A DNA stretch of 24,235 nt from Patellaria atrata CBS 101060 (GCA_010093705.1 MU006090.1:1949817-1974051); one strand, 5' to 3'. Numbered from the stretch's first letter, positions 1 to 18,200 are shown. The notes: a model not told the origin generated them from the sequence alone. Translations and numbers: made by a program.

Positions 1-862
1 TTTGTACTCCCCCCGGTGGGGATGGCGCGTCCAGGGGAACTGGTACATGATGGGTTGTGTGGGTTGTGCCCCTCGAGAAGACGGCGGAGAGTTCGCGCTT
101 GGAGAGCTCGTAGAAGAGCACGTAGAGACCGGCGAAGGGCGCGTCGCGGACGGCGGTGGCGCCGAAGCCGGCGAAGAAGCCGCGGGGGCCTTCGGCGCGG
201 AGGATGGTCATGAAGGCCGAGGGGAGGGAGGGGTAGGTGTAGAGGGAGGACTCGAAGCGGACTTTGAGGACTGTGATGGGCATTGTGACGAGGCCGGCGA
301 AGGCGCGGGCCAGGCCGCCGGTTGTGAGGTTTGCTAGGGCGCTGAGTTTGGGCAGGGAGGAACTGGTGGCGGTGGGGTTAGGAGGGTGTGTGGGGTTGGA
401 GGGCGTAGGCGAGGTTGGCCGGAGGAGGGCGGCGTGATGACGGAGCGCGTTGAGGGTGCTGAAGTAGAGGGCCGAGCCGAAGCCGGTGCGGAGGGCTGAG
501 GGGAGGGTGCCGCGCCATAGGGCTTTTATGGGGTGTGGGGAGGAGAGGAGGGAGTGGATCGTTCCGCGGAGGGTTAGGTGCGTGGTTACGGTGCCGTGTT
601 GTTGTAGGCGGGTTTTGAGGAGATCGGCGGGTTGGAGGAGGACTGCGGAGGTTAGACCTGAGGAGAGGCCGGCGAGGAAGTGGGATGCTGGCGTGGATTA
701 GTTTGATGGTTGAAGAGAGGCTGTTTGGGGTTTGATGGTTGAAGGGAGGGTTTGGTGGAGAGGTAGATTGTTAGGGAATGAGATGGGAAGGGTACGTAAG
801 GTATGTATGGGAGAGGATGGCTTACTGGAAGACGACTTGCGCTTTTGGCCGCCATTTGACAT
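1..862 (-). CDS. HEM25: Mitochondrial carrier, Hem25/SLC25A38 type (glycine/IPP carrier); 3' end lies outside the window. Exons 862-826 and 687-<1
   Basis: Manual minus-strand translation, absent from the ORF track. ATG at 862 gives [12 protein letters not shown] 138-nt intron follows (GTAAGC donor at 825, ACTAAT branch, CAG acceptor at 688), then [30 protein letters not shown]...[21 protein letters not shown]...[28 protein letters not shown]...[25 protein letters not shown]. Carrier signature PxDxxKTR is present, and [10 protein letters not shown] and RDAPFAGLY match the SLC25A38 subfamily as I recall it. Confidence 0.9.
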
Positions 863-1701: not shown

Positions 1702-2142
1702 CATTCAGGGGATTAACGACCCGTACTTGCGCTGTACAGTACACAAGATCATTATGGTACATGTACATGCGAATAGTAGATTCTTTTGAAGTGATAAAAA
1801 AATTCCTTGACAAAGGATAATCGGAGTCGGGTTTTGCAGAGGTTGTCCTTTATACTGTACGCCTTGTCCGTACTGTACCGTACAGTAGACACCTCCGGTC
1901 CTCCGCAACTTAACCACGCATCCGTACATACGTATGTATATGTCCATATCTTACCCATCAAGGAAACCTGTTTCTACCCGTACAGAAGACGCGCGCCTAC
2001 ATAAACCACTGTAGTTACAGTATATCTTCGTATAATGTTCTGGAGACGAGATGAGATGAAGAAAATCAAGAAAATGAGAAACGGTCGGTTCATCTCAAGT
2101 TCCGCCAAGACGAGCTGCCACGTCCACGTTTTTCGGCAATTT

Positions 2143-2152
2143 GACCAATCAG
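2143..2152 (+). promoter_or_regulatory. CCAAT box (candidate Hap/CBC site) upstream of the giant ORF
   Basis: GACCAATCAG matches the extended CCAAT consensus. It directly precedes a C/T-rich stretch typical of fungal transcription start regions. Confidence 0.45.
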
Positions 2153-2572
2153 TGACATCGCCTAACCTTGAATTCCCCTTTTGGCCTTCCCATCTTAAAT
2201 CTTGACAGCCAACAACTCATCCCCGTCAAAGGTCAAGTCAACCTTCAATTCTATCAAACCCTCTTACCCTCCCGCAATGCTGCTCCAACCCGGCAACGCG
2301 TCAAGAAACATCTTGCATACCCAAATTTACCCCTCAGTCTCTCCTTTCGCAGAACTACACTCTCTTTTGTAATACAACTTAATCATCAGCGCGTCAGCTC
2401 TCAACACTCATTACACATCCCCGGACTGAACGCGTCTGCTTGGCTGGACAAGCTCGAATAGCTACAACACCACTATCCTGACCGTATTCGTATGGCCATC
2501 GCAGGTTCCATCTCTCTCCGATAACTATCGTGGGAGGTTTGGACTGCTTCTGTTGAGTAATTGGTCCTTTGG

Positions 2573-5500
2573 ATGCAAGCTCGACGAGCCTTTACCCCCT
2601 CTCCGACCCTACCGTCATCACCGCCTCCTTTCCCTACGAGCCAGGATCGTTCAAACGTAGGTCCTACAGAGGACCGGCTCGATTCTTCCCCCGCGCGGAC
2701 TCTTTGGACGGCTCCCTCGCCTACCCAGACTCTTGGATACTCAAGCCCAGAGCTCCCTGGCTTACCCTCACTCCCCAATCTAGGGGTTGTGTCTAATAGT
2801 CCGTCTTCTTCGGTTCAGCATCCGACTGATACCTCATACTACACTGCCAGTTGGGGTTCGCCATACAGGAGACCACCACCGGGTGTTGCGCGATCGGCGG
2901 AATACGGATCCTGGGGTTTGAATAGTGACGAAGTAGAGGGTGAATCCTCAGAGATACAATTCGGGTTAGATCATCTGCTTCCATCTTTAGTCGAGAGGGA
3001 TCCAGAGTTTGGACTGGAACATCTCTTGCCCTCGCTTCTCCCTGCCGAGATTCAAGCAGAGCTGGTAACACCTACGCGACCGTCCCATCCCACAGCTCCT
3101 GAACAAGTACAAGCTACTCCTCGCCCTATCGATAGATCATCACTCCGAGACCTTGATCAGAGCTTCTTTACTGATTCCGGAAAGGACTGGATCAGAGAAT
3201 ATATTACCAGTCAGTTGGACACAGAGGAGGGAAAACGGTGGAGCGACGAGTCTGGAGACAGTAAAACTCAAGGTGGGAGCACGAGAAGACGTACACCGCA
3301 GGGCAAGGAGTTCTTACTGGCTGAAAATTCGAGCAATACCACATCGCCTTTGGCGCAGCGACAGAAGCCAAAGACACATAAGTCTCGTCAAAGTAATTTG
3401 ACCCTGAGACAAGAAGATTTCTTTGAGCTCCTCAACCAGAAAGGAAAGCAAGAGTTCGAAAAGATGATGTCCTCAAGGTACGCAGATCCTGCGGTAGCAC
3501 AACAAGCACCCACGCGAAAACCAGCTTCTTCTGTTGCGGTTGAAAAACCACTCCCTCCATCCCCCGATGCTGCTGCTCAACCTTCATTGCCTCGCCCGAA
3601 TGGGCGGATTCAACTCTCCAGACACGATCCAAACTTCGGCAAAAGTCAGCCGACTATGCCTCTTGAAAATCACAACTCAGTCGATGCTGTACCCCAAGTC
3701 GCGGAGCCGGTTCCCCAGCAGGTTGAGACTAAGCCTCCGCCCCAGAGTAGCACTCCAGTCCCCCGACTCAAGAAACGTGTTCTTTGGCGAGGTAGGAATT
3801 GCATGATATTGATTCCTCGGGATCCCACTAGGGGCACTGAAGGAGGTCCTCCCAAACCTCTTGAACCGTCAGAAGTAGCTGCTCGCTTGCGAAGATATGA
3901 GTCAGCAGGTTACGATGTCCGAGGTTATGATCACCGTCAAGGTGAAGATGACTTTGTGGAGGAGAAGGGGACTGCTCAGAATCGAGAAATATACCCAACC
4001 CCAGAGGAAGACTATGAAGTTCGAAAGAGCAAAAACTTCGTCGTCCATGTCCCAAACAGAGCAGATTGGGAGGAATATATGAACTTCCTCACCGAGCAGA
4101 AGCTACGAGCATTGGGTGTTTCGTTGGGCGACGACGAACCACAAGAATCACCTGTTCTATCCCGTCGATCATCCTCTCAATACCCACCTTTACCATTCTC
4201 TCCTCCTATACCAACATCATCTTCAGACAGTCAACGACCAGTATTCCCTGGCGTTATTAGGACCGGGTCATTCCCTGTTGGTCCTTCCCCTGGCCATTCG
4301 TCAACCCGCTCAATCGCGTCACCTATATCGATATTTGGTAACCCTAGAGGGGCTATGCAGCATATGCACCGACACTCGACATTCACTTCTCCGGCAAGTT
4401 TCATGCATAAACAATCGAGTTCACCTGGAATTTCGACATGGTCTCCACAGCAGTATCTTAATCAACAGGGTTTTGCGCGAGGGGGTTCACCTGCTCTTCC
4501 TCCGCTTCCTAACAGTAGGCCGGACCTGTCAGACATTGTATCTCCCAATTCTCCATTTGGATCGAAGGCACAGCAACAATTTCCTTTTCCTCAGCAGAAC
4601 GATGTTCTGTTAGCCCAACTTCAGCAGCAGCAACAACTTTTGCAGGCGCAACTCATGCAGCAGCAGCAGCAGCAGCAGCAGCAACATGGTTATTCTAATA
4701 CACGACCATCGTCAACGCTGCAGGAAGTTCCAGAAGCTGAATATGAGGATGAACCACCTGTTCAAAATAATACCGTTGCACGTGAAGATCCGGTAATTGC
4801 GGTTCCTCAGCCACGCGGTCACCAACACAACATCAGTGCAGGTCTTGAACGCGACATTCACAGTGCTGAATATCATCTAGAAAAGGCGATTGATAAGCAA
4901 CTGGATGAAGGTGGTGACTTTAACACTGAGTCTAGATTTGGAGAGCCCGGGCTTGTGAAGAATGCCCAACCGAAAGCAAATGGAGAAATATGGCATGATA
5001 GGACCATGCCTGTGCAACATATCTTACATCAACCACAACCTCACAATAGGGCTCATTCTTTGACTAAGAGACCACAGTCCGGCACGCTTGATTTTGGGAT
5101 CGATGAAGGCCAATCCATTGCCGAAGATGATACAGTCAATGCTAAGAGTCCCTCCGAAGTCGAGACCAACCCTAGCGTAAATGGTGATGCTGATGGTAGC
5201 ACTCTTCACTCAAAGAAGCCGTCAGAGATTATCAACTCTTGGAGTGATGGACAGCTACCACGGGAGAATGCTGAGCCACAGTTAGCAAATCACCACCCTC
5301 GCCCAAGCCATGTATCCAAACCATCAATGTCGAAGCTCAATGTTGAAGCGAAGGAGTTCAAGTTCAACCCAGCGGCATCCTTCAGTCCTAATAGCTTTAC
5401 ATTCTCCGCATCGTCTTTCGAACAGTCGAAGGCTTCTGCGCCATCATCTCATGTGGCAAGTAACCAACACTCCACTAAATCATCCGTGGAGGGTATGTCT

Positions 5501-8500
5501 AGGACTTTGAATGTCGAAGCACCAAGTTTCAAGCCGAGTGGTTTCACAAACTTCAGCATGCCCACCGGCGAATTTTGTTTCTTGTCCAAGGGGCTATCTT
5601 TCAAGCCAACTGCGCCCGAGTTCAAGCCAGGCTCTTCCGTCTCCAAAACAGTGACAGATCCTGTTCCCGAGGAAGCGGAAGATCCTAACCGTATCTTTAA
5701 ACTGAAGTTTGGAGAAATTGTTAGGCCTGCTAAGCAATCGAAAGCTGTCCCGATTGTACGACCCGATCGAAACGCTCATATGAATGATGAATCAATCCAA
5801 GAGGACGAATTTGGCCGGCTAGGTCAAGCTGACGGATATCAAAAACGCGTAAGGAGAGGACCTGGTGGGGATGGAAATGATGTTCCTCAGTTTGCTATTC
5901 CCACTCATCCTCTAAGTGAGACGACCGACTTCCAGACCATCAGGAAGGACGAATCAAGGGATCAGAAAGTAAAACCTTTAGACAAGGAAAATGTTGCGCC
6001 AGATGACGGATCCGATGTTGCTCAACACTCCAGCGCAACGCCGTTCGCGCTTCAAGAGAAAGCGAACATGGGTACGGTGGATATACCTTCTCTCGATCAA
6101 AATCTGCCCAGCTTTCCAGCACCTTCTCAAAGAGCCGCGTCAGCAGAACCTACAGCCCCTATCAAGAAGCATGCAAGCAAGAACTCTTTATCTGCTACTG
6201 CGAAACCATTCGAGTTCAGATCGAACAATGGAGCTTTCGACTTTGGATTGCACGTCACCAAACCTTCATTCGAACAGGCTGATAAGGTTGAGCGGAGCCA
6301 ACAACTGGCGAGCGAAACTCCAACGCGCTTTCAAAGCAGAAGTCCTGCCACAACTTTCCGGCACAGTGATGATGGTTCATACAAGACTGCTCCGGAACCG
6401 AGAAGACACCTTCCGTATCCTGATAGCGAGGAGGGTGATTTCGATTCTTTTGTTCCTCCTACATACCAAGAAATTGATGACGTTATGAAACAGTTGGATG
6501 CAGAAGGATCCGATTTCGGAATCGTACAAGAGGAGGAGTCATGGGATCAGTCAAGTCCAAAGAGATTATCCAGAGATTATGATCCGACTGACCTTAGACC
6601 CGTACAACACTTCCGTAGTGATGCTCCAAGCCCAAGCCCTCGTCGTCTCTATACAAACACGCTAGATACTGGTGCTACCTCCACTCCAGTTACTCATGAT
6701 CCATTCAGTGATGAACGCGCAGGGCAAGCATACGAATCTCCCGTACATCGTCTCAACGATGGAGATGATATTCCTATTAGCGAGTGGGGTGATGTTGTAT
6801 CATCAACCGAGGAAGACAAGTTCCATTCGAGGATTAACTTCTTCGATAGTCACGTTGATAATCTTATCGGTGCGGTACTATCAAAGCGTCTAGATCCTAT
6901 AGAGCAGACACTACAAGCTGTTCAGGAATCAATTGGTCTATTTTCGCAACCTGACTATGCTAGACGTTCTCGGCGTAGTGCTTCTGCTATGGAAAGTGAC
7001 GCCGATGATGAGGATGATGAACTACCTGCAGAATCTAATCTCCGGAACAGATCACCACGGAAGGATCGTAAGCTGGAGAAGATGCGAAGCATTATTGTCG
7101 AGGCTCTTGCAGCTTATCAGCCCCAGCAAGAAATACGCGAATCTCCTTCCATTGATCCCACCGAGTTTTACCAGGCGCTTGCGGATATCAAGACCTCTTT
7201 CGCAAGATCAACTGCGACGAATGACTATATCGAGAATATCAAAGAAGTCATCCAAAGTGCATTGTCTGATCAGCAACTTGCAGTCATTGAGAGTCGCGAA
7301 AATGATATCATCAATGAAAGCACTACACGTATTTCGGAGCTAGAGAACGCTTTGAAGGAGGCCAACCTACGGTTGGAGTCTGAAGTTGAAAATCACCGTT
7401 CTACACAGCAACGACATAATGATACTCAGCGATTACTAGATCTAACCGAAGAAGAATTGAGCCTTCTCAAAGAGTCTTCAAGAGACGACAGGAATAAACT
7501 TCGAGCTGCTACAGAGGAAATACATTCAGTCAGGTTGAATAGTGTAACTTTAGAAGCAGCCCAGGATGATTTACGTAAGAAGCTGTCCGCAGTTACTGCT
7601 CAAAACGAGGCGCTGGAAGCTACACTAGAGGAATATCGGATTTCAAGCGCGCAGTGGCGGAAAGACATTGATGAAGCCGACCAGGAGAAGTCTCGTCTAA
7701 AGAGTGTTACGGCTGCATTACAAATACAAATTGAAGAGGCCATGCAGATTAGAAGTACGATGCGCGACAGACTTGACATTCTGCAAAGAGAGATGATCAC
7801 CGCTGCTGGACAGGTAGCTCATGAGAAATCTCAATGGCAAGATGAGATCCAAGAACACCGCACGAGATATGAGATATTAAGTGCCAGGATCGAAGCCGAA
7901 GCCCGCACTCGGGAGAGATTAGAAAAGGAAATGGAACGGCTTGAGTTACAGGAGCGGGAAGCTATGAGGTTGAAAGTTACGTTGGAACATACTCAACACG
8001 CTTATTCCCGTCTTGAAGAAACCGTTAATACTTTGCGTCTCGAAAATACAGAGCACCAGAAGACAGCTGAACGCTATGAGCGCGAATTCCGCGAAGCTCG
8101 AGATGCTGGCCGTGTAGAAGTAGAACGCACCCGGCGCCTTATGGAGGCCGACGTTGAAAACGCCAACAACCAAGTTAACATGGTCCGTGCAGACCTCGAA
8201 AGAGAGTTGACTAGAGTTCGAGCAGAGCTTGACAGCGTTCGTATGGAAGCTGATACTACTAAAGAAAAACATGCACTCATGCTCGAGCAAGAAGCTGATG
8301 CGCGTAGAGATGCACTACGTGAAGCTAGCAATGCTCGTAACATCGCTTTCAAAGAACAGCATCACAAGTACGAGCAACATGTAAATGAGCTCAAACAGCA
8401 ACATAGCAGGGCTATCCATATCGCACACGAGGACAAGGAACGTGCGGAACTACATCTTAATGAGCGTCTTGCTCTCTCTGATGCTAAGGTTGAACATCTT

Positions 8501-9460
8501 CGAGATAAAGTACTGCACTTGGAGGAAAAGCTTGAAGTCGCCAAGTCTGCTGCACAAGCTGCTGTTGAGGCTGCCAAAGCCGCCAAAGTTCCAGCATCTG
8601 CAGTCTCTTCTGGTTCATATGAGAAGGTCTCTCCTCAAGCGCTCCGTGAATCTATTCTCGTCTTGCAAGAACAGCTTCAGGAACGAGAGGGACGAATCGA
8701 GAGCCTCGAACACCAATTGTCATCGCTTGACACTGAGGCTCCGAACAAGTTGAAGGAGCGTGATACTGAGATCGGTTGGCTTAGAGAGCTCCTTGGTGTT
8801 CGTGTTGACGACTTATCTGATTTGATTACTGCTCTATCACAACCAGCGTATGACCGCGAGGCGGTGCGGGACGCTGCCATTCGCATCCGCTCCAACTTGC
8901 AAATGGAGCAACAAGAGAAGGAAAGATTGATCAATGGTGGTCAAAACTTCCCTACTCTCGCAAGCTTATCCAATTTCGCTTCTCCAAAAGCAGTACAACT
9001 TGCTGCCGCATTCGGGAACTGGCGTAAGGGAAATGGGTCGAGTAAACTAGCACAGACTTCATCTTCGAATTCCAGCCGAACTCAGACGCCATCGAAACCA
9101 TCTCCAGCAGTCTCTACTCCAGGGTTCTTGTCAGGACTCATGACTCCTCCAACATCTAACCTCCGCCGTACACCGGAACCCAGCAGTGCCGGTGCTTCTA
9201 AAGCACCACAAATGCCTACAGGACGGCTTGAGCGTGGATTAGATCTCCCCAGCTTGTCTTCAAGACGACAGGAGAAGCAAGCTATCCCATCAACCCCGCC
9301 ACTGTTACGCAAGGCATCATATGATCGCGATGCCGAAGATGGGGATTACAGCGTCAATGGTTTCTATGACGACGAAGAGAGTACTATGGATGGGAATCCT
9401 GCAGATAGACAGGATAACTTTTCGAGATTTGGTCCAGGACTTCATTCTCAGTTGTCCTAA
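2573..9460 (+). CDS. Intronless ~2295-aa protein: disordered S/P/Q-rich N-terminal part, 4-5 PAM2-like motifs and a long C-terminal coiled coil. I recall this family being auto-annotated as myosin class II heavy chain, but it has no motor domain
   Basis: Continuous 6.9-kb ORF. The first ATG is at 2573 (the track start at 2561 is TTG). Contains polyQ and a heptad-rich E/R/K/L/A region of roughly aa 1590-2130. No myosin P-loop (GESGAGKT). Confidence 0.9.
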   Translation: MQARRAFTPSPTLPSSPPPFPTSQDRSNVGPTEDRLDSSPARTLWTAPSPTQTLGYSSPELPGLPSLPNLGVVSNSPSSSVQHPTDTSYYTASWGSPYRRPPPGVARSAEYGSWGLNSDEVEGESSEIQFGLDHLLPSLVERDPEFGLEHLLPSLLPAEIQAELVTPTRPSHPTAPEQVQATPRPIDRSSLRDLDQSFFTDSGKDWIREYITSQLDTEEGKRWSDESGDSKTQGGSTRRRTPQGKEFLLAENSSNTTSPLAQRQKPKTHKSRQSNLTLRQEDFFELLNQKGKQEFEKMMSSRYADPAVAQQAPTRKPASSVAVEKPLPPSPDAAAQPSLPRPNGRIQLSRHDPNFGKSQPTMPLENHNSVDAVPQVAEPVPQQVETKPPPQSSTPVPRLKKRVLWRGRNCMILIPRDPTRGTEGGPPKPLEPSEVAARLRRYESAGYDVRGYDHRQGEDDFVEEKGTAQNREIYPTPEEDYEVRKSKNFVVHVPNRADWEEYMNFLTEQKLRALGVSLGDDEPQESPVLSRRSSSQYPPLPFSPPIPTSSSDSQRPVFPGVIRTGSFPVGPSPGHSSTRSIASPISIFGNPRGAMQHMHRHSTFTSPASFMHKQSSSPGISTWSPQQYLNQQGFARGGSPALPPLPNSRPDLSDIVSPNSPFGSKAQQQFPFPQQNDVLLAQLQQQQQLLQAQLMQQQQQQQQQHGYSNTRPSSTLQEVPEAEYEDEPPVQNNTVAREDPVIAVPQPRGHQHNISAGLERDIHSAEYHLEKAIDKQLDEGGDFNTESRFGEPGLVKNAQPKANGEIWHDRTMPVQHILHQPQPHNRAHSLTKRPQSGTLDFGIDEGQSIAEDDTVNAKSPSEVETNPSVNGDADGSTLHSKKPSEIINSWSDGQLPRENAEPQLANHHPRPSHVSKPSMSKLNVEAKEFKFNPAASFSPNSFTFSASSFEQSKASAPSSHVASNQHSTKSSVEGMSRTLNVEAPSFKPSGFTNFSMPTGEFCFLSKGLSFKPTAPEFKPGSSVSKTVTDPVPEEAEDPNRIFKLKFGEIVRPAKQSKAVPIVRPDRNAHMNDESIQEDEFGRLGQADGYQKRVRRGPGGDGNDVPQFAIPTHPLSETTDFQTIRKDESRDQKVKPLDKENVAPDDGSDVAQHSSATPFALQEKANMGTVDIPSLDQNLPSFPAPSQRAASAEPTAPIKKHASKNSLSATAKPFEFRSNNGAFDFGLHVTKPSFEQADKVERSQQLASETPTRFQSRSPATTFRHSDDGSYKTAPEPRRHLPYPDSEEGDFDSFVPPTYQEIDDVMKQLDAEGSDFGIVQEEESWDQSSPKRLSRDYDPTDLRPVQHFRSDAPSPSPRRLYTNTLDTGATSTPVTHDPFSDERAGQAYESPVHRLNDGDDIPISEWGDVVSSTEEDKFHSRINFFDSHVDNLIGAVLSKRLDPIEQTLQAVQESIGLFSQPDYARRSRRSASAMESDADDEDDELPAESNLRNRSPRKDRKLEKMRSIIVEALAAYQPQQEIRESPSIDPTEFYQALADIKTSFARSTATNDYIENIKEVIQSALSDQQLAVIESRENDIINESTTRISELENALKEANLRLESEVENHRSTQQRHNDTQRLLDLTEEELSLLKESSRDDRNKLRAATEEIHSVRLNSVTLEAAQDDLRKKLSAVTAQNEALEATLEEYRISSAQWRKDIDEADQEKSRLKSVTAALQIQIEEAMQIRSTMRDRLDILQREMITAAGQVAHEKSQWQDEIQEHRTRYEILSARIEAEARTRERLEKEMERLELQEREAMRLKVTLEHTQHAYSRLEETVNTLRLENTEHQKTAERYEREFREARDAGRVEVERTRRLMEADVENANNQVNMVRADLERELTRVRAELDSVRMEADTTKEKHALMLEQEADARRDALREASNARNIAFKEQHHKYEQHVNELKQQHSRAIHIAHEDKERAELHLNERLALSDAKVEHLRDKVLHLEEKLEVAKSAAQAAVEAAKAAKVPASAVSSGSYEKVSPQALRESILVLQEQLQEREGRIESLEHQLSSLDTEAPNKLKERDTEIGWLRELLGVRVDDLSDLITALSQPAYDREAVRDAAIRIRSNLQMEQQEKERLINGGQNFPTLASLSNFASPKAVQLAAAFGNWRKGNGSSKLAQTSSSNSSRTQTPSKPSPAVSTPGFLSGLMTPPTSNLRRTPEPSSAGASKAPQMPTGRLERGLDLPSLSSRRQEKQAIPSTPPLLRKASYDRDAEDGDYSVNGFYDDEESTMDGNPADRQDNFSRFGPGLHSQLS
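4658..4684 (+). repeat. Coding (CAG)8CAA microsatellite encoding Q9, preceded by a Q5 run
   Basis: Read directly; translates as LQQQQQLLQAQLMQQQQQQQQQH. Confidence 0.95.
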
Positions 9461-10150
9461 ATTGGAACTCAGCAAATATGAAACCCTTTCTTTTGTTAAA
9501 CAATTTCCTATGTAAAGTCTCTTTAGCCGTGTCCATTCATTTCATTTTGGTTTTTGATACCCTGGACAGCGTACAGAATGGACAGAACGGTACAGAAATA
9601 TCCATCAGATTGTATAACTTCTCCTTGCACGTGTACTTGCTTAAATTGATAACTCGCGTCTACGTACGCTTGCTGTTTCTCCTTCTATCTTTGCTCTTGG
9701 AAAAATGGGTGATGGGGGATGGCAGTCTTGTCAAATACTTTCTCTCCTTATGGTGCATAGCGCGGCGAGCTTTTCGGGCGCTGTCCTTCGTTTCGGAATA
9801 TCGATGGTTGGAGGAGGTGCGAAGGTGACTTTTTGTAGCTCAAAATAATAGAGGTCTTATATGTTCTGTGGTTTTTCTGTTAGTACATGTGGTGATTGAT
9901 ATATCTGTGGCACCAATTCCCAACCTAACTAACATTATGCATGTGATATACCATTATAGATTCAATTCAGTACATACAACAAAACTGTGCGGTACAGGTA
10001 TCAGATATCACGGAACTTATTCCGAAGATAGCCGGGCCGAAGGTGAGATGCCGCAAACTCCACCTTACATCCGACTATGATGTAGCCTCTTCAACTTTCC
10101 TTAAACTCTACCCCCAACATTTCTCTTTTAACAAACATCCACCGATAACC

Positions 10151-11745: not shown

Positions 11746-14492
11746 TCACTTCACAGTACTCTCAACCAACTCTCTATAAATCCTCTTCAAATCCACCACA
11801 TCCGCCCTGAGTTCCTCAACCTCCTCGCTCTTCTCCCCCAACATCTCAAGCGTAGTCGCATACCTAACGCCCACCTCCTCCAACTCCCTCCTCATGCCCG
11901 CAACCCTCTCCTCAAGGCCCCTCTTCTCCTCCACCTCCCTTAAGAGCGCGACGACCTCTTCCCGCGCCCCGTCCCGCTGCGCCGCCAGCCTCGCCATCTC
12001 CTCTTTCACCACCGCCTTCTCGGACTCAAGCCGGCGGACGGCAGCGGACATGCGCTCGACGAGCTGGACCGAGGGCCCGGCCCCGGAGGCGCTGGTCGAA
12101 AGCATGTCTGCGATTGTGCGGTGGGGAGAGGACGTGGAGTCGAAGGCATCGTCGGGGTCGAAGGCGTGGATGGAGGGGGTCTGGGAGACGGAGCCGAGGT
12201 GGGATGGCGCACCATTGAGGTGTGTGGAGAGGGAGGGGAGGGAGTCTTGTCTCAGGGGTGGGGTGCCGGGGTGAGGCTGGCGGGAGGAGCGGCGCGATTG
12301 GGAGTGTGAGCGTGTGTCAGGGATGGGGGGAGGGGAGAGGGCGCCGACTTCTGAGGAGAAAGTGCGGGGGATGGGGCGGCGGTATGTGTTTTGTTCGCCG
12401 AAGGCCGGGGAGGGGGAGTGGTGCCGGCGATGGGGTTGGGAGAGTGAGGCCCCTGTCGTCGTGGGCGATTGGAGGTATTGCCCCGAGTCGACGAGCCCGA
12501 GGCCCTGATGTTGACTGTTGTTGATGTTGCTACTTTCCAGCCGCCATTTCAGTTTCTCGTCTTCGACCCGTTGCGTCATTTCCGCCTCCCACACCTTCTT
12601 CTCCTGCTCGAAGGTCTCTTTCGCGTCGTTGAGCGCTGTTTCCGCGCCGCTGAGTCGACTTTGCAACTTCGTCATCGCGGCGGCTTGCTCTTGCATATCG
12701 TGCTCCAAAGATCTCGCACGGTCGTGCACCGCTTCCAATTCCTCTTCCAGCCGGCGGGACTTCGAATTTACATCTCTCGCCTTGCGACGCACGTCAGATT
12801 CGCGTTTGACGGTCTCATCACGCTCCTTTTCGAGTGCTGCGACACGGGAGGTAAGTGTGCTTTCGATACCGTGCCAGTTCTCGCTAGCGAGGGCATATTG
12901 AGTCTGCAGGGTTTCGATTTGACGGAGTAGTTTGGTTTGTGTGTCTGTACCGGCGGTGGATTCTTCTGTGCGGGAGCGGAGGAGTTCAAGTTTGGTTTCG
13001 AGGCTCTAGGGGTAGAGATGTTTAGCGTACATAGACAGTAAATAAGGTATGGAATAAACTTACTGTAATTTCACCCCTCAACTCGATCTCCATTACCTTC
13101 GCGTGTTCCTGCTGCCTCATCGCTCCCTCCTTGACATCTTTGATCTCTGCTCTCGCCCGATCTTCTACCAGCTTCTTCTGTATTTTGGTGTCTTCGATCT
13201 CATCCCGCAAGTCAGACACGATTTTCCTCTCCGCTTCCAAGGCACCGATCTGCACCCTCTTCTCCGCCTCCTCAGCCCGCGCGTCCGCTTCCGCGACCTG
13301 CCGTTTCAAATCCACGATAACGCGTGCCGCATCCTCTTTCTCGTTCCGTAAGGCCTCGACATCCTTCTCAATCCGACCCAACACCCTCATCCTTTCCGCT
13401 GCCGCCTTCTCCGCCCCTTCCGCCCTTTTGGCTCTCTCTGTCGCCTCCAGCAGCTGACGTTCGGCATTAGCCAATTTGCGTCTCAGTTCCGCGTTCGCCT
13501 TTTCCTCTTCCCCCTTTTGAGCTCGTAGCTTTTTGATCACGTTCATGTGCTTCAGCTCCGTTTTGGACAACCTCTGACCCTCATCCAGCAGCAGCGCGAT
13601 TTGCTCATCTTTGTCAGCTAGTTTGCGCTCCAGACTACCTGGGTTAGCGTTTAAGGCGGTATTATGAGCGGCTTCTGCGGCGGTGCGGGAGAGGTATTGG
13701 AGTTTAGCTTGCAGTGCGTCGATCCGTTCTAGGTGGGAGTGGATTTCGGATGCCTGCGTTGCGTGGGCTTCGCGGAGTTGGGAGAGTTCGAGGTCAGAAT
13801 CAATAGCGGAGAGTCGGGTAGGGGATGGAGGCGAGGTATCTGCATGCGTTGCGTCCAGGGAGGGGCGGGGAGATTCGAGGGATTGGCGGGGGGAGGCTTC
13901 TGGTTTATTTTCTGCCGGTTGGACTGCGATTGTGATATCTGTGGGTTGCTCAGGAGATGGTTGTTCTGTAGGTGCTGGTAGGGGCTTAAGTGGTTCAACA
14001 GGTTCGGGCTCGATCTTCGGTTCTGATGGTTCGTCATTTGCAGGTTGTGAAGCAGCAGCTTCGGCCGGGGCTTCAGAAGCCTTCGAATCGATGCTAGAGC
14101 GAGTAGTTTCCCCGTCTATCCCTGGTGTAGCTGTCCTGGAGGGCAACTCAGACGACTGCCTGCTGACGGGTCTTTGCCCATCCGCGCCCTTCACCACAGC
14201 CTTCGCCAGCCGTTCTTGTAGTCGATTATTAGTTTGACTTCTTGTCGAAGACGTCCTCGATATGCCTGTTCTTTGCATTAGCCCCTAGTCTTCTCAGCTC
14301 AACTGCAAATTCCGAACCTTGGTCAGTTGCTTTTGACTGACGCGCTGCTACCTCTACCGCTCTACTCTTCGCGGAGGCTTGATCATCTTCCGCTAGAATA
14401 GTGTCGAGCCTCGACTCCAGACCTGCAACGGCGCCGGAGAGTAGGGATCCCCATCTTGAGCCTTTGTTTTGTTTGGTGGGTTGTGCGCTCAT
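11746..14492 (-). CDS. SGM1: TMF1/Sgm1-type golgin (coiled coil with C-terminal TMF_TATA_bd/Rab6-Ypt6-binding domain), ~878 aa. Exons 14492-14318, 14265-13064, 13005-11746
   Basis: Three ORF segments are joined in frame by a 52-nt intron (GTTCGG...GCTAAT...CAG) and a 58-nt intron (GTAAGT...TAG). Motifs: N-terminal WGSLLSGAVAGLESRLDTIL; KDEQIALLLDEGQRLSKTELKHMNVIKKLR (TMF_DNA_bd-like); C-terminal GPSVQLVERMSAAVRRLESE...RYATTLEMLGEKSEEVEELRADVVDLKRIYRELV. Confidence 0.9.
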
Positions 14493-15261: not shown

Positions 15262-18200
15262 TCATTGAGCCTTCTTTGACGCTATGCGCCTTCTTCTCCC
15301 TATCGATGCTGCTGGTCCACCATTCCCGAGTCTGTCTCCTTCATCTTCAATCCTGTCACTCGTTACAGAGACGATCTTAACGGAGTTCCCAAAGGCAATG
15401 GCGATGCTACGTTTATCGAGCCTCGTCGCCGGGCCGGGATTAGCGACTATGATCTGCTGATTGACTTTTCCGGCGCTCAGTGATATGTTTGCGTCGGCGG
15501 TTATATCTGATGACAACGGCTGTGTATGAAACATTCCTGTGGACGATAGTGACCAGGCTTCCCAAACCTGTGGATCCTTTAGTTTTGATTTTTCTTTCTC
15601 ATTTTGATCCTGTTTTGAAAATTTGAAAGGAGATACGTTTCGAGACGTCGTATGGCGTTTCGAGAGACCGGAGTCTTGTATCAATGGCAGCGCGGGTTGC
15701 TCCCTGATACCAAGTACAGACATAGCACCAGAAGTTTCCCAAGCACCAGGGTCATCTATCCGATAAGTCATCATTTTCGCCCTATGAATGTTATTGCAAG
15801 TAGTGTCATTATCATCATCCTGGGGTCGAAGACAGATATTAATATCACCTTCATTGGTGAAAGTGTGCATCATACAACGTTTAGTATCGTAGTCCGTATA
15901 GACTAGAGCTAGAGATTTTACTGCGGGGCCTTGACAAGTCCCACAAGATCGACGCTTTAGATGTATGATCCGCATGGAAACACCTTGGATATGTTCTGTT
16001 TGTATGTTTGCAACGAACTTCTTAGTCTTAACGTCAAACATGTCCACTTCATGTAATCTGACAGCCGCAAACAAGTCCAGGTTCTTTAAAGCCAGGATAT
16101 ATCGCACCTTGCTGACCCTCCTGTCAGCTTGGATTTGAGGTGGTAGAGAGATCAAGGGGCTAGTGTGCCAACGTCCACCTAGAGCGGCTTTTGTGATATG
16201 CATATCTCCATGTTGAGCAAGTGTCAATACTACTACAGAGAATTCAGTAGTACCGCTCAGTTTTGAAGATATCAAAGAGCCACTGTATATACAGTGATGT
16301 TGTATCCGCTGAGTTGTAAGATCAATATCTATCATCCAACCATCAAGAGTGACAATGAGTAAGTGGAGGGTGTTCGGATCTCCAGCTTTGAAAGATGCCA
16401 TGGTGAATAGTAAGGGTTCGATATCCTTCAACGCAACATTATGATACTGTATGAACCGCGCTCTCTCGAGGCTCCAGATTCCAATAAGGCCGGTGTCAGA
16501 ACAGACAGCAAGTCGACAGCTATCCTCATCGATAGTTGATGCAATGACAGGCCAAACGGGTTTGCTTCCGGAGTCACTTTTAATGAAGTGATGGGTATAA
16601 CGGCCAGTCCAACTGTCAAGATACCAACCCGACATTGACCGATCCGTACTGATAGTAAGTAGGTGGCCTTTCCCGTTACCGGTTATATCGGCAATATCTA
16701 GTTTGTGAGATATTGGAAGAGTTTCGATAGTCAGCGTCGGTTCCGCAATTGTAGACATTGATTCATCATTTGGTATCTCATCCCATAGAAGATAATGCAT
16801 CAGCAGCGTTGTGACGGCGATGCAAGAAACCAGTATCAATACAAAGGAAAATATATGATCGGTCATAAGGGAGAAGGTTTTATGTAAGACTGAACCCGAC
16901 ATGTGAGGGGCAGCAGCTCTATCGGCATCTTTAAGGACGATAGTAAGCGGCTCGTAGACTCTAGCAACAAATCCAAAACCTTTTGGTTTGATAAAGCTGA
17001 TGACTTCTTTTCCAGTATCGTATTCTTGCATCCGTAACCATTCACCTGGACTCCTAGCTTGGTTTATGGGTGGCAAAGAGGGCACAATCTCGTCAAGAAC
17101 ATGTTTGTTGCCGCGTCGCCAACCTGGCCGAAGTAGACGCAACAAGGACCTGAGTTTCTCGCCCTCCCAGAAATGGTAATTTAAGACGATGACGAAACAT
17201 ATCAAAAATGCCTGGCCAGCGATCCTTGTACTGCCTGGTACTCGACCTTCGCGGAAAACCATGCTACGGAAAAGGGCAGTGCTCCAGCCTTCCCGCTCGG
17301 TCCTCATGGCATTTGCATTCGTATGGATATCATTAACTCTTTCCAGGGAGTCTCTTAGCTCTGTACGGCGAACATCGACACTCAAGACCGCAACAAAGAA
17401 CGTAAGATGAAACAGAAAATCGAACGTCAATGCGAAGAAAGAAAACATGCAGAACTGTGCAACTCCTTGGTAGCTCAACTTGGAAAGAAGGTATAGTAAT
17501 CCGAGATTTTGACCGACACCAGCAAATGCCAGAGGTCCGACATCACCTAGGGCTCGCGCTACACGCTCCACTGTTGGCAGCTCTGGGGATTGTTCCACGA
17601 CGGTATCGACCAGACGGAACCTAGTCAAAATTGTATGATGAGTATAGCAACGGAGAAACATTTAGCAACCCTTCAGCATTGTTCAGACTTACATATTCTC
17701 CAGTCCTAGGAAGAGGGTCAACGCTGGAAATACCTCTCTCGGAACAGTAGCTAGGTTCACATTGAACAACCCGCAAAGGGTTAGGCTAGCTAAGATAGAT
17801 ATGGCAACCTACGCGACATCATTAGCTTGACTCTAACCGTGCTCACTTTTGTTCTGTTATACCTGGGTACAGAGAGCAATAAGAAGGCCCGCTTGGCTCT
17901 TGACACCCCTTAAACGTCGAAGCCTAGAGAGCACAATCAACGACACGACACTATAGATGATTACCAAGAGAAAATCATCGCCGAATCCCATTGGTTTAAA
18001 CCGGAAATCATATGTCTGGCTCCTAGCTGGTCTTCCATTTTTAGGATATATCGACCATCGGTCTGGGGCTGCCTGAGCGAGGCGCACGGATTGCTCAATC
18101 CATCTCGTTCCGACATCAGCTCCAGGAAACTCGAAAAGGGTAATGACCAAAGCATCTGCTGCCGTGAGTTTACCACTGGAAAATGATTTACCCGCAAATA

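What the first reader, a model, noticed from the sequence alone, without database searches (positions are those of the whole stretch)
5330..6217. Giant coiled-coil protein carries 4-5 PAM2-like motifs: an ascomycete counterpart of the mRNA-transport scaffold Upa2?
Seen: SKLNVEAKEFKFNP (5330), an overlapping partial KFNPAASFSP, RTLNVEAPSFKP (5501), LSFKPTAPEFKP (5594) and NSLSATAKPFEF (6182), all in a disordered region, followed by a ~550-aa coiled coil and a short Trp motif (AAAFGNWRKG) near the C-terminus. Established: PAM2 (SxLNxxAxEFxP) binds the MLLE domain of poly(A)-binding protein. As I recall, Ustilago maydis Upa2 is a ~2100-aa protein with four PAM2 motifs, a C-terminal coiled coil and a GWW motif that acts in endosomal mRNA transport and was described for basidiomycetes. 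Inference: this non-motor protein is a multivalent Pab1 scaffold, pointing to an uncharacterised mRNP transport or granule system in filamentous ascomycetes.
Basis: partly seen in the sequence, partly recalled or inferred. Interest (0 to 1): 0.75.

Follow-up and report, generated by a model that had tools for sequence, protein, structure and literature searches.

The report
PxdA endosome tether with PAM2 motifs
This gene is the counterpart of PxdA, a known fungal protein that lets cargo ride on moving endosomes, and its floppy middle part carries a conserved row of the short peptides that dock onto poly(A)-binding protein, which suggests how messenger RNA particles attach to it.

Summary
All five strings stand at the stated coordinates in one 2295-aa ORF (2573-9460, +). 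A 136-aa stretch with motifs 1-3 scores 35.6 bits (E 5.3e-9, 3 stretches) on Pfam PAM2. The motifs are conserved islands in a poorly conserved, probably disordered region.

The protein is not uncharacterised. It is the Dothideomycete orthologue of Aspergillus nidulans PxdA (AN1156), the early-endosome hitchhiking tether: BLASTP 744 bits, collinear end to end, with all four motifs aligned to PxdA's own.

The array is family-wide. Of 136 full-length representatives, 135 have at least one PAM2-pattern hit (mean 2.57, against 0.034 in shuffles). This includes an Orbiliomycete.

Two 2026 preprints bear on it. One shows that PxdA is needed for hitchhiking of SsdA/FabM mRNPs. The other notes 'PAM2L motifs' in PxdA in a single sentence.

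My reading is that the array docks the MLLE domain of Pab1/FabM. Binding was not tested, because no Pab1 sequence was available.

Membership in the Upa2 family is not shown. There is no C-terminal GWW and no N-terminal PAM2, and Upa2 sequences could not be reached. The scan reached the same reading earlier on other DNA (e1-7704670).

The parts
2573..9460 (+). Single-exon coding sequence of the PxdA orthologue (2295 aa plus stop)
   Evidence: The ORF is listed. The same 2295-aa protein is in the database as P0003, with precomputed PF26916/DUF8275. BLASTP against A. nidulans AN1156.2 (P0419) gives 744 bits and 32% identity over 2442 columns, collinear.
3764..4120 (+). Conserved N-terminal segment (residues 398-516) inside the otherwise variable N-terminal region, function unknown
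   Evidence: It aligns with A. nidulans PxdA at about residues 375-495. No Pfam family reaches its threshold; the only hit is NOV_C at 15.5 bits.
5330..5371 (+). PAM2 motif 1, SKLNVEAKEFKFNP (residues 920-933), with Phe in place of the consensus Pro
   Evidence: Pfam PAM2 scores 21.1 bits, E 2.3e-4, on the 27-aa peptide. It aligns with SSLNVEAKEFAPTG of A. nidulans PxdA. It is present in 115 of 119 Dothideomycete hits.
5360..5389 (+). Overlapping partial motif KFNPAASFSP, with Phe-to-Phe spacing one residue shorter than in PAM2
   Evidence: No PAM2 hit (fifth peptide). The family consensus keeps FNP..SF.P. In Arthrobotrys the equivalent FNPNAAVFSP has the canonical spacing.
5501..5536 (+). PAM2 motif 2, RTLNVEAPSFKP (residues 977-988), canonical L-N-x-x-A-x-x-F-x-P
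   Evidence: Pfam PAM2 scores 22.4 bits, E 8.9e-5. It aligns with GRLNVAAPSFTP of PxdA. It is present in 100 of 119 hits.
5594..5629 (+). PAM2-like motif 3, LSFKPTAPEFKP (residues 1008-1019), with Phe at the Leu position and FxP kept
   Evidence: No hit as a lone peptide, but it counts as the third matched stretch in the 136-aa scan. It aligns with ASLNVAAPEFNP of PxdA. It is present in 111 of 119 hits, and in Pleosporales it is expanded to up to 8 overlapping copies.
5690..5902 (+). Conserved basic island between motifs 3 and 4 (residues 1040-1110), function unknown
   Evidence: The consensus IF..DIVKP.KKSKAIPIVRPD...EDE.GR...RQKRARR...DDGD.VP.FA.P comes from the alignment of 136 sequences.
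6182..6217 (+). PAM2-like motif 4, NSLSATAKPFEF (residues 1204-1215)
   Evidence: It matches the recalled ELM-like pattern but gives no Pfam hit as a peptide. It aligns with SALSASAKPFSF of PxdA. It is present in 104 of 119 hits.
7157..8947 (+). Long alpha-helical rod (residues 1529-2125), equivalent to CC1-3 of PxdA
   Evidence: Helices in the AlphaFold2 model. The C-terminal halves of the window protein and PxdA share 39% identity over 1003 columns, E 2e-174.
8849..8923 (+). Conserved patch YDREAVRDAAIRIRSNLQMEQQEKE, equivalent to PxdA aa 2034-2058, the endosome-binding determinant of the literature
   Evidence: 16 of 25 residues are identical to P0419 2034-2058, by my own count on the alignment, and the flanking part of the rod is highly conserved (whose printed conservation line stops at residue 2110). 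The role of this patch and of R2044P comes from PMC10295486 (passages).
9002..9031 (+). Trp motif AAAFGNWRKG (residues 2144-2153)
   Evidence: 87 of 136 family members match [FWYLM]G.W[RK][KR], and the commonest form is AAAWGNWRKGR. The motif lies a median 154 aa from the C-terminus.
9032..9457 (+). Low-confidence C-terminal tail, equivalent to UR2 of PxdA
   Evidence: pLDDT is below 50 from model residue 765 onwards. The tail aligns with the PxdA tail.

Best explanation
The gene encodes the orthologue of PxdA, the coiled-coil tether that sits on motile early endosomes in Pezizomycotina and lets other cargo hitchhike.

Its C-terminal helical rod, with the conserved VRDAAIR...LQMxQQEKE patch, anchors it to endosomes. 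This is shown for A. nidulans PxdA and inferred here by homology.

[quoted passage not shown] In its middle it carries a conserved array of three to four PAM2-type peptides with FxP spacing and non-acidic flanks. [quoted passage not shown] A probably dimeric PxdA would then offer six to eight Pab1 sites and tie polyadenylated mRNPs, such as the SsdA/FabM puncta, to PxdA-marked endosomes.

Shown here: the identity of the gene, and the presence, statistical excess and family-wide conservation of the motifs.

Inferred: MLLE binding, dimerisation and the role in mRNP transport.
For: Identity of the gene:
- A search with a Penicillium representative lists AN1156.2 of A. nidulans FGSC A4 (2236 aa, P0419).
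- BLASTP of the window protein against P0419 gives 744 bits, collinear over 2442 columns. The C-terminal halves give E 2e-174.
- The Sordaria hit P0253 is XP_003347059.1/SMAC_05260. It was found with the window's C-terminus at 5.1e-137. It is listed as the PxdA homologue in Table S1 of PMC10295486 (supplement 3).

Motifs:
- Pfam PAM2 scores 35.6 bits with 3 stretches in the window stretch, and 38.7 bits with 3 stretches in A. nidulans PxdA 823-958.
- 135 of 136 full-length representatives have at least one pattern hit, 120 have at least two and 69 have at least three. The mean is 2.57, against 0.034 in shuffles. All hits lie at relative positions 0.1-0.6.
- The motifs are conservation islands in the alignment.
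- They are present in Arthrobotrys conoides, an Orbiliomycete.

Context from papers:
- PxdA lacking the N-terminal region still supports peroxisome distribution, so that region must serve something else (PMC4748578).
- pxdA and dipA deletions nearly abolish movement of SsdA puncta that co-move with FabM. Whether PxdA contacts the mRNP directly is stated to be open.
- Canonical PAM2 has FxP spacing and binds MLLE of Pab1. PAM2L is acidic with FxxP spacing (PMC9249222).
Against: - No binding test was possible.
- The whole protein scores 19.5 bits, just under Pfam's cut-off of 20.
- Motifs 3 and 4 give no Pfam hit on their own.
- Motifs 1 and 4 have Phe where the consensus has Pro.
- Among ten orthologue stretches, only 4 exceed the cut-off. 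Five score 13.4-18.7 bits and one (the Aureobasidium-cluster representative) gives nothing.
- As whole proteins, Penicillium, Coccidioides and Xylona give no PAM2 hit.
- In Upa2 the four PAM2 motifs bind Pab1 but are dispensable for its function in hyphal growth and for endosomal shuttling. Binding would therefore not prove that this is the operative link.
- The disorder and helix calls rest on single-sequence AlphaFold2 models of low to moderate confidence.
Confidence: 0.6

Rival explanations
1. PxdA of Pezizomycotina and Upa2 of Basidiomycota are divergent orthologues of one ancestral endosomal multi-PAM2 scaffold. On this reading the window protein is a true Upa2 family member, not merely an analogue.
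For: The architectures match (Upa2 from the preprint 10.1101/455378, passages):
- Upa2 is 2121 aa. It has a central PAM2 triplet within aa 834-1216 and a C-terminal coiled coil within aa 1712-2121, and its C-terminal part localises it to endosomes.
- The window protein is 2295 aa. Its motifs lie at aa 920-1215, its rod at about aa 1529-2125, and a Trp motif follows the rod.

The two families have complementary ranges in the literature: Upa2 only in Basidiomycota, PxdA only in Pezizomycotina. Both are needed for mRNP hitchhiking. The PAM2 array is already present in Orbiliomycetes. PMC10295486 itself allows for a divergent U. maydis homologue missed by BLAST.
Against: - No sequence comparison was run, because no Upa2 sequence could be reached.
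- GWW is absent (1 of 136 anywhere, 0 of 136 in the last 60 aa).
- No pattern hit lies in the first tenth of any family member, whereas Upa2 has a PAM2 at its immediate N-terminus.
- BLASTp with PxdA found nothing in U. maydis or five other basidiomycetes (Table S1).
- Upa2's endosomal localisation is mRNA-dependent and needs only the last 163 aa. PxdA's needs CC2/3.
- PAM2 peptides and coiled coils both arise easily by convergence.
Confidence: 0.3
2. The motifs are conserved short linear motifs for a partner other than the MLLE domain, for instance DipA, SsdA or another endosomal or peroxisomal factor. Their likeness to PAM2 is then incidental.
For: - Half of the orthologue stretches fall below Pfam's cut-off.
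- Position 12 is often Phe rather than Pro.
- The Pleosporales expansion to FKPDAPxFKP heptad repeats could equally serve another aromatic-proline reader.
Against: - PAM2 is the top Pfam family in 9 of 10 orthologue stretches.
- The residues kept across the family are those of the PAM2 core, spaced L/F-N-x-x-A-x-x-F-x-P.
- A. nidulans motif 1 reads LNVEAKEFAP, the consensus itself.
- Overlapping PAM2 pairs are known from eRF3 and Tob (stated in the Upa2 preprint).
Confidence: 0.2
3. The aromatic-proline repeats act mainly as 'stickers' that drive condensation of the disordered region on endosomes, with no single defined partner.
For: Deletion of pxdA or dipA lowers the number and brightness of SsdA puncta. 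The authors read this as endosome-promoted coalescence. Copy number varies between lineages.
Against: The position, order and exact residues of motifs 1, 2 and 4 are conserved across classes. This is typical of a peptide-domain contact and not of loose stickers.
Confidence: 0.08

Closest known systems
PxdA (Aspergillus nidulans AN1156; A. fumigatus Afu1g11450), early-endosome hitchhiking tether; Pfam DUF8275 (PF26916)
   Same: Full-length collinear homology. Same layout: a long variable N-terminal region, a helical rod of about 600 aa and a short tail. The CC3 patch is conserved. The same four motif positions are present.
   Different: Only 32% identity overall. Motif 1 ends in Phe-Asn-Pro rather than Ala-Pro, and motif 3 starts with Phe-Lys-Pro rather than Leu-Asn-Val. 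No experiment exists for any Dothideomycete member.
Upa2 (Ustilago maydis UMAG_10350), multi-PAM2 scaffold of endosomal mRNA transport
   Same: Similar size. Central cluster of PAM2 motifs at a similar distance from the N-terminus. C-terminal coiled coil. Endosome association through the C-terminal part. Involvement in mRNP hitchhiking.
   Different: No GWW at the C-terminus and no N-terminal PAM2. Sequence homology is untested. Upa2 works with Rrm4 and Upa1, which the literature says ascomycetes lack. PxdA also carries peroxisomes and Woronin bodies.
Canonical PAM2 peptides of PABP partners (PAIP1/2, ataxin-2, eRF3, Tob, PAN3, GW182, Upa1)
   Same: Core L/F-N-x-x-A-x-x-F-x-P with FxP spacing, inside a disordered region. 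Pfam PF07145 matches. In Pleosporales orthologues the copies overlap, as described for eRF3 and Tob.
   Different: An array of 3-4 motifs, and up to 8 or more overlapping copies in relatives, whereas most PAM2 proteins have one. Phe replaces Pro at the last position in motifs 1 and 4.
PAM2L (PAM2-like) motifs of Upa1, bound by the third MLLE domain of Rrm4
   Same: A short aromatic peptide in a disordered region of an endosomal adaptor. This is the label used for PxdA in the 2026 preprint.
   Different: PAM2L has an acidic stretch, FxxP spacing and an extra Tyr, and it does not bind MLLE of Pab1. The window motifs are Lys/Ser-flanked with FxP or FxF spacing, so they are of the PAM2 type.

Membership tests
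PxdA / DUF8275 (PF26916) | Full-length sequence homology to A. nidulans PxdA (AN1156) | tested here: met
   744 bits, E 0, collinear over 2442 columns. C-terminal halves: 524 bits, E 2e-174, 39% identity. Precomputed PF26916 on the window protein.
PxdA / DUF8275 (PF26916) | Architecture: long N-terminal region without known domains, about 600 aa of tandem coiled coil, short C-terminal region | tested here: met
   Pfam finds only PAM2. Helices span residues 1529-2125 and the tail has low confidence. The N-terminal motif region has low confidence.
PxdA / DUF8275 (PF26916) | Conserved CC3 patch (PxdA aa 2034-2058) with the Arg whose change to Pro abolishes endosome binding | tested here: met
   Window residues 2093-2117 match P0419 2034-2058 at 16 of 25 positions, and both Arg of VRDAAIR are kept. 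In P0419, position 2044 is Ile and 2045 is Arg, so the paper's numbering is off by one or refers to R2040. This is unresolved.
PxdA / DUF8275 (PF26916) | Taxonomic range: Pezizomycotina only | tested here: met
   The closest relatives are Dothideomycetes. Every representative that carries a fungal species name is a member of Pezizomycotina; one record, P0178, is filed under an oak (Quercus suber), which I take for a contaminant.
PxdA / DUF8275 (PF26916) | Localises to motile early endosomes and is required for hitchhiking | not testable with these tools
   Known only for A. nidulans.
PAM2 motif (Pfam PF07145; ELM LIG_PAM2) | Match to the PAM2 profile above the gathering score | tested here: met
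   Motif 1 scores 21.1 and motif 2 scores 22.4 bits. The 136-aa stretch scores 35.6 bits with 3 stretches. The whole protein scores only 19.5 bits. Motifs 3 and 4 give no hit alone.
PAM2 motif (Pfam PF07145; ELM LIG_PAM2) | Core residues Leu/Phe-3, Ala-7, Phe-10 and Pro-12 with FxP spacing | tested here: met
   Motifs 2 and 3 have all four. Motifs 1 and 4 have Phe at position 12 (read directly). The consensus xxLNxxAxEFxP is quoted in PMC9249222.
PAM2 motif (Pfam PF07145; ELM LIG_PAM2) | Lies in a disordered region and is conserved in orthologues | tested here: met
PAM2 motif (Pfam PF07145; ELM LIG_PAM2) | Binds the MLLE domain of poly(A)-binding protein | not testable with these tools
   No Pab1 sequence could be obtained. 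No complex prediction was run.
Upa2 family | Sequence homology to UMAG_10350 | not tested
   No Upa2 sequence was obtainable. The searches list only the best 120 or 150 hits, and every hit that carries a fungal species name is from Pezizomycotina. Published BLASTp of PxdA against U. maydis found nothing.
Upa2 family | C-terminal GWW motif needed for endosomal localisation | tested here: not met
   GWW occurs in 1 of 136 family members anywhere, and in 0 of 136 within the last 60 aa. The window has FGNW 152 aa from the end.
Upa2 family | [quoted passage not shown] | tested here: inconclusive
   A central cluster is present (motifs 1-3, plus motif 4). No hit lies in the first tenth of any of the 136 proteins.
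Upa2 family | C-terminal coiled coil acting as a dimerisation domain | tested here: inconclusive
   A long helical rod is present. Dimerisation was not tested.
PAM2L motif | Acidic N-terminal stretch, FxxP spacing, extra Tyr | tested here: not met
   The window motifs have Lys/Ser flanks, FxP or FxF spacing and no Tyr.

The most novel reading that the evidence does not exclude
PxdA and Upa2 are the same ancient gene: one Dikarya-wide endosomal scaffold with a central multi-PAM2 array and a C-terminal endosome-binding rod. On this reading the mRNA-hitchhiking machinery was not lost in ascomycetes but diverged beyond BLAST recognition. It would follow that Upa2 may carry peroxisomes in Ustilago and that PxdA carries poly(A) mRNPs through Pab1 in all Pezizomycotina.
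Probability: 0.3. Interest if true: 0.75.

Novelty: new member of a known kind. Interest (0 to 1): 0.5.

Why it matters
PxdA was long regarded as a peroxisome-specific tether whose 1,400-aa N-terminal region had no known role. A 2026 preprint shows that mRNPs carrying the poly(A)-binding protein also need PxdA to ride on endosomes, and it leaves open whether the contact is direct.

A family-wide array of PAM2 peptides in exactly that unexplained region gives a concrete and cheap hypothesis to test: PxdA binds Pab1/FabM directly. Existing A. nidulans strains lacking the N-terminal region could test it at once.

It would also bring together two hitchhiking systems, Ustilago Upa2 and Aspergillus PxdA, which the literature treats as unrelated.

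The point is not new in kind. One sentence in a preprint already mentions PAM2-like motifs in PxdA. That sentence calls them PAM2L, whereas by spacing and flanks they are of the canonical, Pab1-binding type.

Tried and rejected
- Source names such as 'Myosin class II heavy chain' and 'Prefoldin'. Pfam finds no motor or prefoldin domain, so these are misnomers.
- A spindle-pole-body, TPR or centrosomin reading. The Atlas feature search lists such coiled-coil clusters at scores of 0.87-0.93. I reject this as generic coiled-coil likeness, given the end-to-end orthology to PxdA. The top hit after skipping PF26916 is an unnamed cluster (233 members, PAM2 on 19%) that I could not identify.
- phmmer of the motif region against PDB chains. 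It gave only chance hits at E about 1, to influenza PA.
- The window's own genome is not held. Pab1, Rrm4-like or DipA genes of this organism could therefore not be sought.
- No session protein holds an MLLE signature. No complex prediction was run, and no structure search was run on the low-confidence models.
- Upa2 sequences. Each lists only its best 120 or 150 hits, and every one that carries a fungal species name is from Pezizomycotina. The 52 weaker hits (E between 1e-30 and 1e-3) were not shown, so it is unknown whether basidiomycete proteins are among them.
- Expression. No RNA holder is listed. The two runs laid are probably DNA and may be the window's own source. They show no difference or joint across 2000-10000.
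- The PAM2L label of the 2026 preprint. I reject it for these motifs on spacing and charge.
- Literature on a PxdA-PAM2 link. A search for 'PxdA' with 'PAM2' found 5 papers and listed 3. Only one mentions it in its text, in a single sentence; the other two hold PxdA only in their reference lists.
- Literature on a PxdA-Upa2 link. A search for 'PxdA' with 'Upa2' found 4 papers and listed 3. None proposes homology.
- bioRxiv supplements were not open to me.

Full report
**The observation.** The window holds one uninterrupted reading frame on the + strand from 2573 to 9460, encoding 2295 aa.
- SKLNVEAKEFKFNP at 5330
- the overlapping KFNPAASFSP at 5360
- RTLNVEAPSFKP at 5501
- LSFKPTAPEFKP at 5594
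- NSLSATAKPFEF at 6182

Results on the Pfam PAM2 model (PF07145, gathering score 20 bits):

| Query | Score |
|---|---|
| Whole protein | 19.5 bits, E 7.2e-4 |
| Motif 1, 27-aa peptide | 21.1 bits |
| Motif 2, 27-aa peptide | 22.4 bits |
| Motif 3, motif 4, overlapping partial | no hit |
| 136-aa stretch with motifs 1-3 | 35.6 bits, E 5.3e-9, 3 matched stretches |

An ELM-like PAM2 pattern, which I recalled from memory and did not take from a tool, hits four times in the 48,466 residues of the six-frame translation of the window. Three hits are in this gene. The fourth is in a hydrophobic stretch of the sterol-sensing protein.

**Surrounding structure.** A single-sequence AlphaFold2 model of nt 5201-6340 has mean pLDDT 43.9 and essentially no secondary structure. 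This fits disorder but does not prove it. A model of the last 920 aa gives very long helices at residues 1567-1650, 1663-1845, 1847-2003, 2021-2073 and 2095-2125, followed by a low-confidence tail. The Trp motif AAAFGNWRKG is at residues 2144-2153, 152 aa from the end.

**What the gene is.**
- The closest database relatives are Dothideomycete proteins of 2290-2310 aa at 52-54% identity over the searched part (Lepidopterella, Glonium). They are named 'hypothetical' or 'myosin class II heavy chain' and carry the precomputed Pfam family PF26916. The Atlas names that family DUF8275.
- An exhaustive HMMER search with the last 1200 aa found 336 representatives at E up to 0.001, of which 284 were at E up to 1e-30.
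- One representative is from Penicillium cf. griseofulvum. Searching with it listed 'AN1156.2 [Aspergillus nidulans FGSC A4]', 2236 aa (P0419). AN1156 is pxdA and encodes a 2236-aa protein (PMC4748578, passages).
- BLASTP of the window protein against P0419 gives 744 bits and 32% identity over 2442 columns, collinear from the N-terminal region to the tail. The C-terminal halves alone give 524 bits, E 2e-174, 39% identity.
- Another representative hit by the window's C-terminus at 5.1e-137 is Sordaria macrospora XP_003347059.1/SMAC_05260. That accession is listed as the PxdA homologue, with reciprocal best hit, in Table S1 of PMC10295486 (supplement 3).
- The patch given there as PxdA aa 2034-2058 is kept in the window at 16 of 25 positions. 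The paper's R2044 falls on Ile-2044/Arg-2045 in P0419, a one-residue numbering difference that I could not resolve.

The window gene is therefore the PxdA orthologue of a Dothideomycete.

**The motifs in PxdA and its family.** In the BLASTP alignment all four motifs pair with motifs of A. nidulans PxdA:

| Motif | Window | A. nidulans PxdA (position) |
|---|---|---|
| 1 | SKLNVEAKEFKFNP | SSLNVEAKEFAPTG (829) |
| 2 | RTLNVEAPSFKP | GRLNVAAPSFTP (876) |
| 3 | LSFKPTAPEFKP | ASLNVAAPEFNP (913) |
| 4 | NSLSATAKPFEF | SALSASAKPFSF (1108) |

PxdA 823-958 scores 38.7 bits, E 5.3e-10, with 3 stretches on Pfam PAM2.

Conservation across the family:
- Of the 150 representatives listed, 136 are at least 1600 aa long. 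The 14 shorter ones, mostly C-terminal fragments, were left out.
- Of the 136, 135 have at least one hit to the recalled pattern, 120 have at least two and 69 have at least three. The mean is 2.57 per protein, against 0.034 in 50 shuffles of each. All hits lie between 10% and 60% of protein length.
- An E-INS-i alignment of 136 sequences shows the motifs as conservation islands in an otherwise unalignable region. These were the 135 representatives that have a pattern hit plus P0419; P0196, which has none, fell out.
- Among the 119 other proteins, motif 1 is found in 115, motif 2 in 100, motif 3 in 111 and motif 4 in 104. In Pleosporales, motif 3 is multiplied into overlapping FKPDAPxFKP units in PAM2 register, up to 8 copies.
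- Named members with the array come from Eurotiales, Onygenales, Chaetothyriales, Dothideomycetes, Arthoniomycetes, Leotiomycetes, Sordariomycetes, Xylona, Vezdaea and the early-branching Orbiliomycete Arthrobotrys conoides.

Against this:
- Of ten 136-aa orthologue stretches, only 4 exceed Pfam's cut-off. Five score 13.4-18.7 bits and one scores nothing.
- Several whole proteins give no PAM2 hit.
- One full-length representative (P0196) and the Xanthomendoza protein have no pattern hit.

**How it most likely works.** Published work on A. nidulans shows four things:
- A version lacking the N-terminal region still distributes peroxisomes normally (PMC4748578). The region that holds the motifs therefore has no known task.
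[quoted passage not shown] It says it is undetermined whether PxdA contacts mRNP components directly.
- Canonical PAM2 (xxLNxxAxEFxP, FxP spacing) binds the MLLE domain of Pab1. PAM2L motifs are acidic, have FxxP spacing and do not bind it (PMC9249222).

The window motifs have Lys/Ser flanks and FxP or FxF spacing, so they are of the PAM2 type.

I therefore infer the following. The array docks Pab1/FabM, and the C-terminal rod holds the protein on endosomes. Several weak sites, doubled if the rod dimerises as Upa2's does in two-hybrid assays, tie polyadenylated mRNPs to PxdA-marked endosomes.

None of the binding steps was tested here. The Upa2 precedent also warns against over-reading: its PAM2 motifs bind Pab1 yet are dispensable for function.

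**Comparison with Upa2.** From the preprint (passages), Upa2 has these features:
- It is 2121 aa long.
- It has a coiled coil within aa 1712-2121.
- It has a GWW at the very C-terminus that is essential for endosomal localisation.

The central PAM2 cluster and the rod of the window protein lie at strikingly similar positions. But GWW is absent from the family (1 of 136 anywhere, 0 of 136 in the last 60 aa), and no member has a pattern hit in its first tenth. The family's own Trp motif, most often AAAWGNWRKGR, is present in 87 of 136 members. It sits a median 154 aa from the end.

The literature treats the two families as unrelated. Upa2 is described as conserved in Basidiomycota and 'not present in ascomycete fungi', and PxdA as found 'only in Pezizomycotina'. 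BLASTp with PxdA found nothing in six basidiomycetes.

I could not obtain any Upa2 sequence, so homology is untested. The complementary ranges and matching layouts keep divergent orthology open, at about 0.3.

**Novelty and prior notice.**
- A search for 'PxdA' with 'PAM2' found one text mention, a single sentence in the discussion of 10.64898/2026.03.03.708097 that calls the motifs PAM2L.
- A search for 'PxdA' with 'Upa2' found no proposal of homology.
I re-derived it here independently from sequence.

The finding is thus a further member of a known family, carrying a feature that is barely described in print but bears directly on an open question.

**Neighbours.**
- A mitochondrial carrier at 2-697 (-).
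- A TMF/golgin-like gene at 11746-14278 (-).
- A sterol-sensing SCAP-like gene at 15262-17661 (-).
- A family-X DNA polymerase at 20788-22233 (+).

None bears on the finding.

Noticed in passing
window 5690-5902 (+), residues 1040-1110: A strongly conserved basic island lies between PAM2-like motifs 3 and 4. The family consensus is IF..DIVKP.KKSKAIPIVRPD...EDE.GR...RQKRARR...DDGD.VP.FA.P. It matches no known motif that I tested, and it may be a second docking site or a nuclear-localisation-like element.
   Followed up: partly
window 3764-4120 (+), residues 398-516: A conserved, more order-prone segment sits in the N-terminal region (RLKKRVLWRGRNC...EQKLRALGV). It aligns with A. nidulans PxdA at about 375-495 and has no Pfam family above threshold. 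[quoted passage not shown]
   Followed up: partly
window 9002-9031 (+), residues 2144-2153: The Trp motif AAA[WF]G[NS]WRKG is conserved in 87 of 136 family members. By position it falls inside the A. nidulans CC1-3 construct that suffices for endosome binding, at about aa 2088-2097 of P0419. It is not a GWW.
   Followed up: partly
P0118 and other Pleosporales proteins: The third motif is expanded into overlapping heptad repeats, FKPDAPxFKP, with copy number varying from 1 to 8. Each Phe serves both as the end of one PAM2-like unit and as the start of the next.
   Followed up: partly
window 4619-4684 (+), residues 683-704: There is a Gln-rich tract (LQQQQQLLQAQLMQQQQQQQQQ). The contigs of run X1 break at 4649-4694, which is a repeat-driven assembly break and not a difference in the DNA.
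   Followed up: no
P0009, P0010, P0039, P0060, P0093, P0119; P0387, P0398, P0407 and others: Several database gene models fuse the PxdA orthologue to a neighbouring gene: an MFS transporter (PF07690) in Dothideomycetes, and a glycoside hydrolase family 17 gene (PF00332) in Aspergillus. These are probably annotation mergers and not real fusions.
   Followed up: no
window 11746-14278 (-): A two-piece gene has TMF_DNA_bd and TMF_TATA_bd domains (a golgin of the TMF/Sgm1 type). It is another coiled-coil trafficking protein next door, and probably a coincidence.
   Followed up: partly
P0419 position 2044: In the database record of AN1156.2, residue 2044 is Ile, and Arg stands at 2040 and 2045. The R2044P mutation in the literature therefore does not match this record's numbering by one residue.
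   Followed up: no
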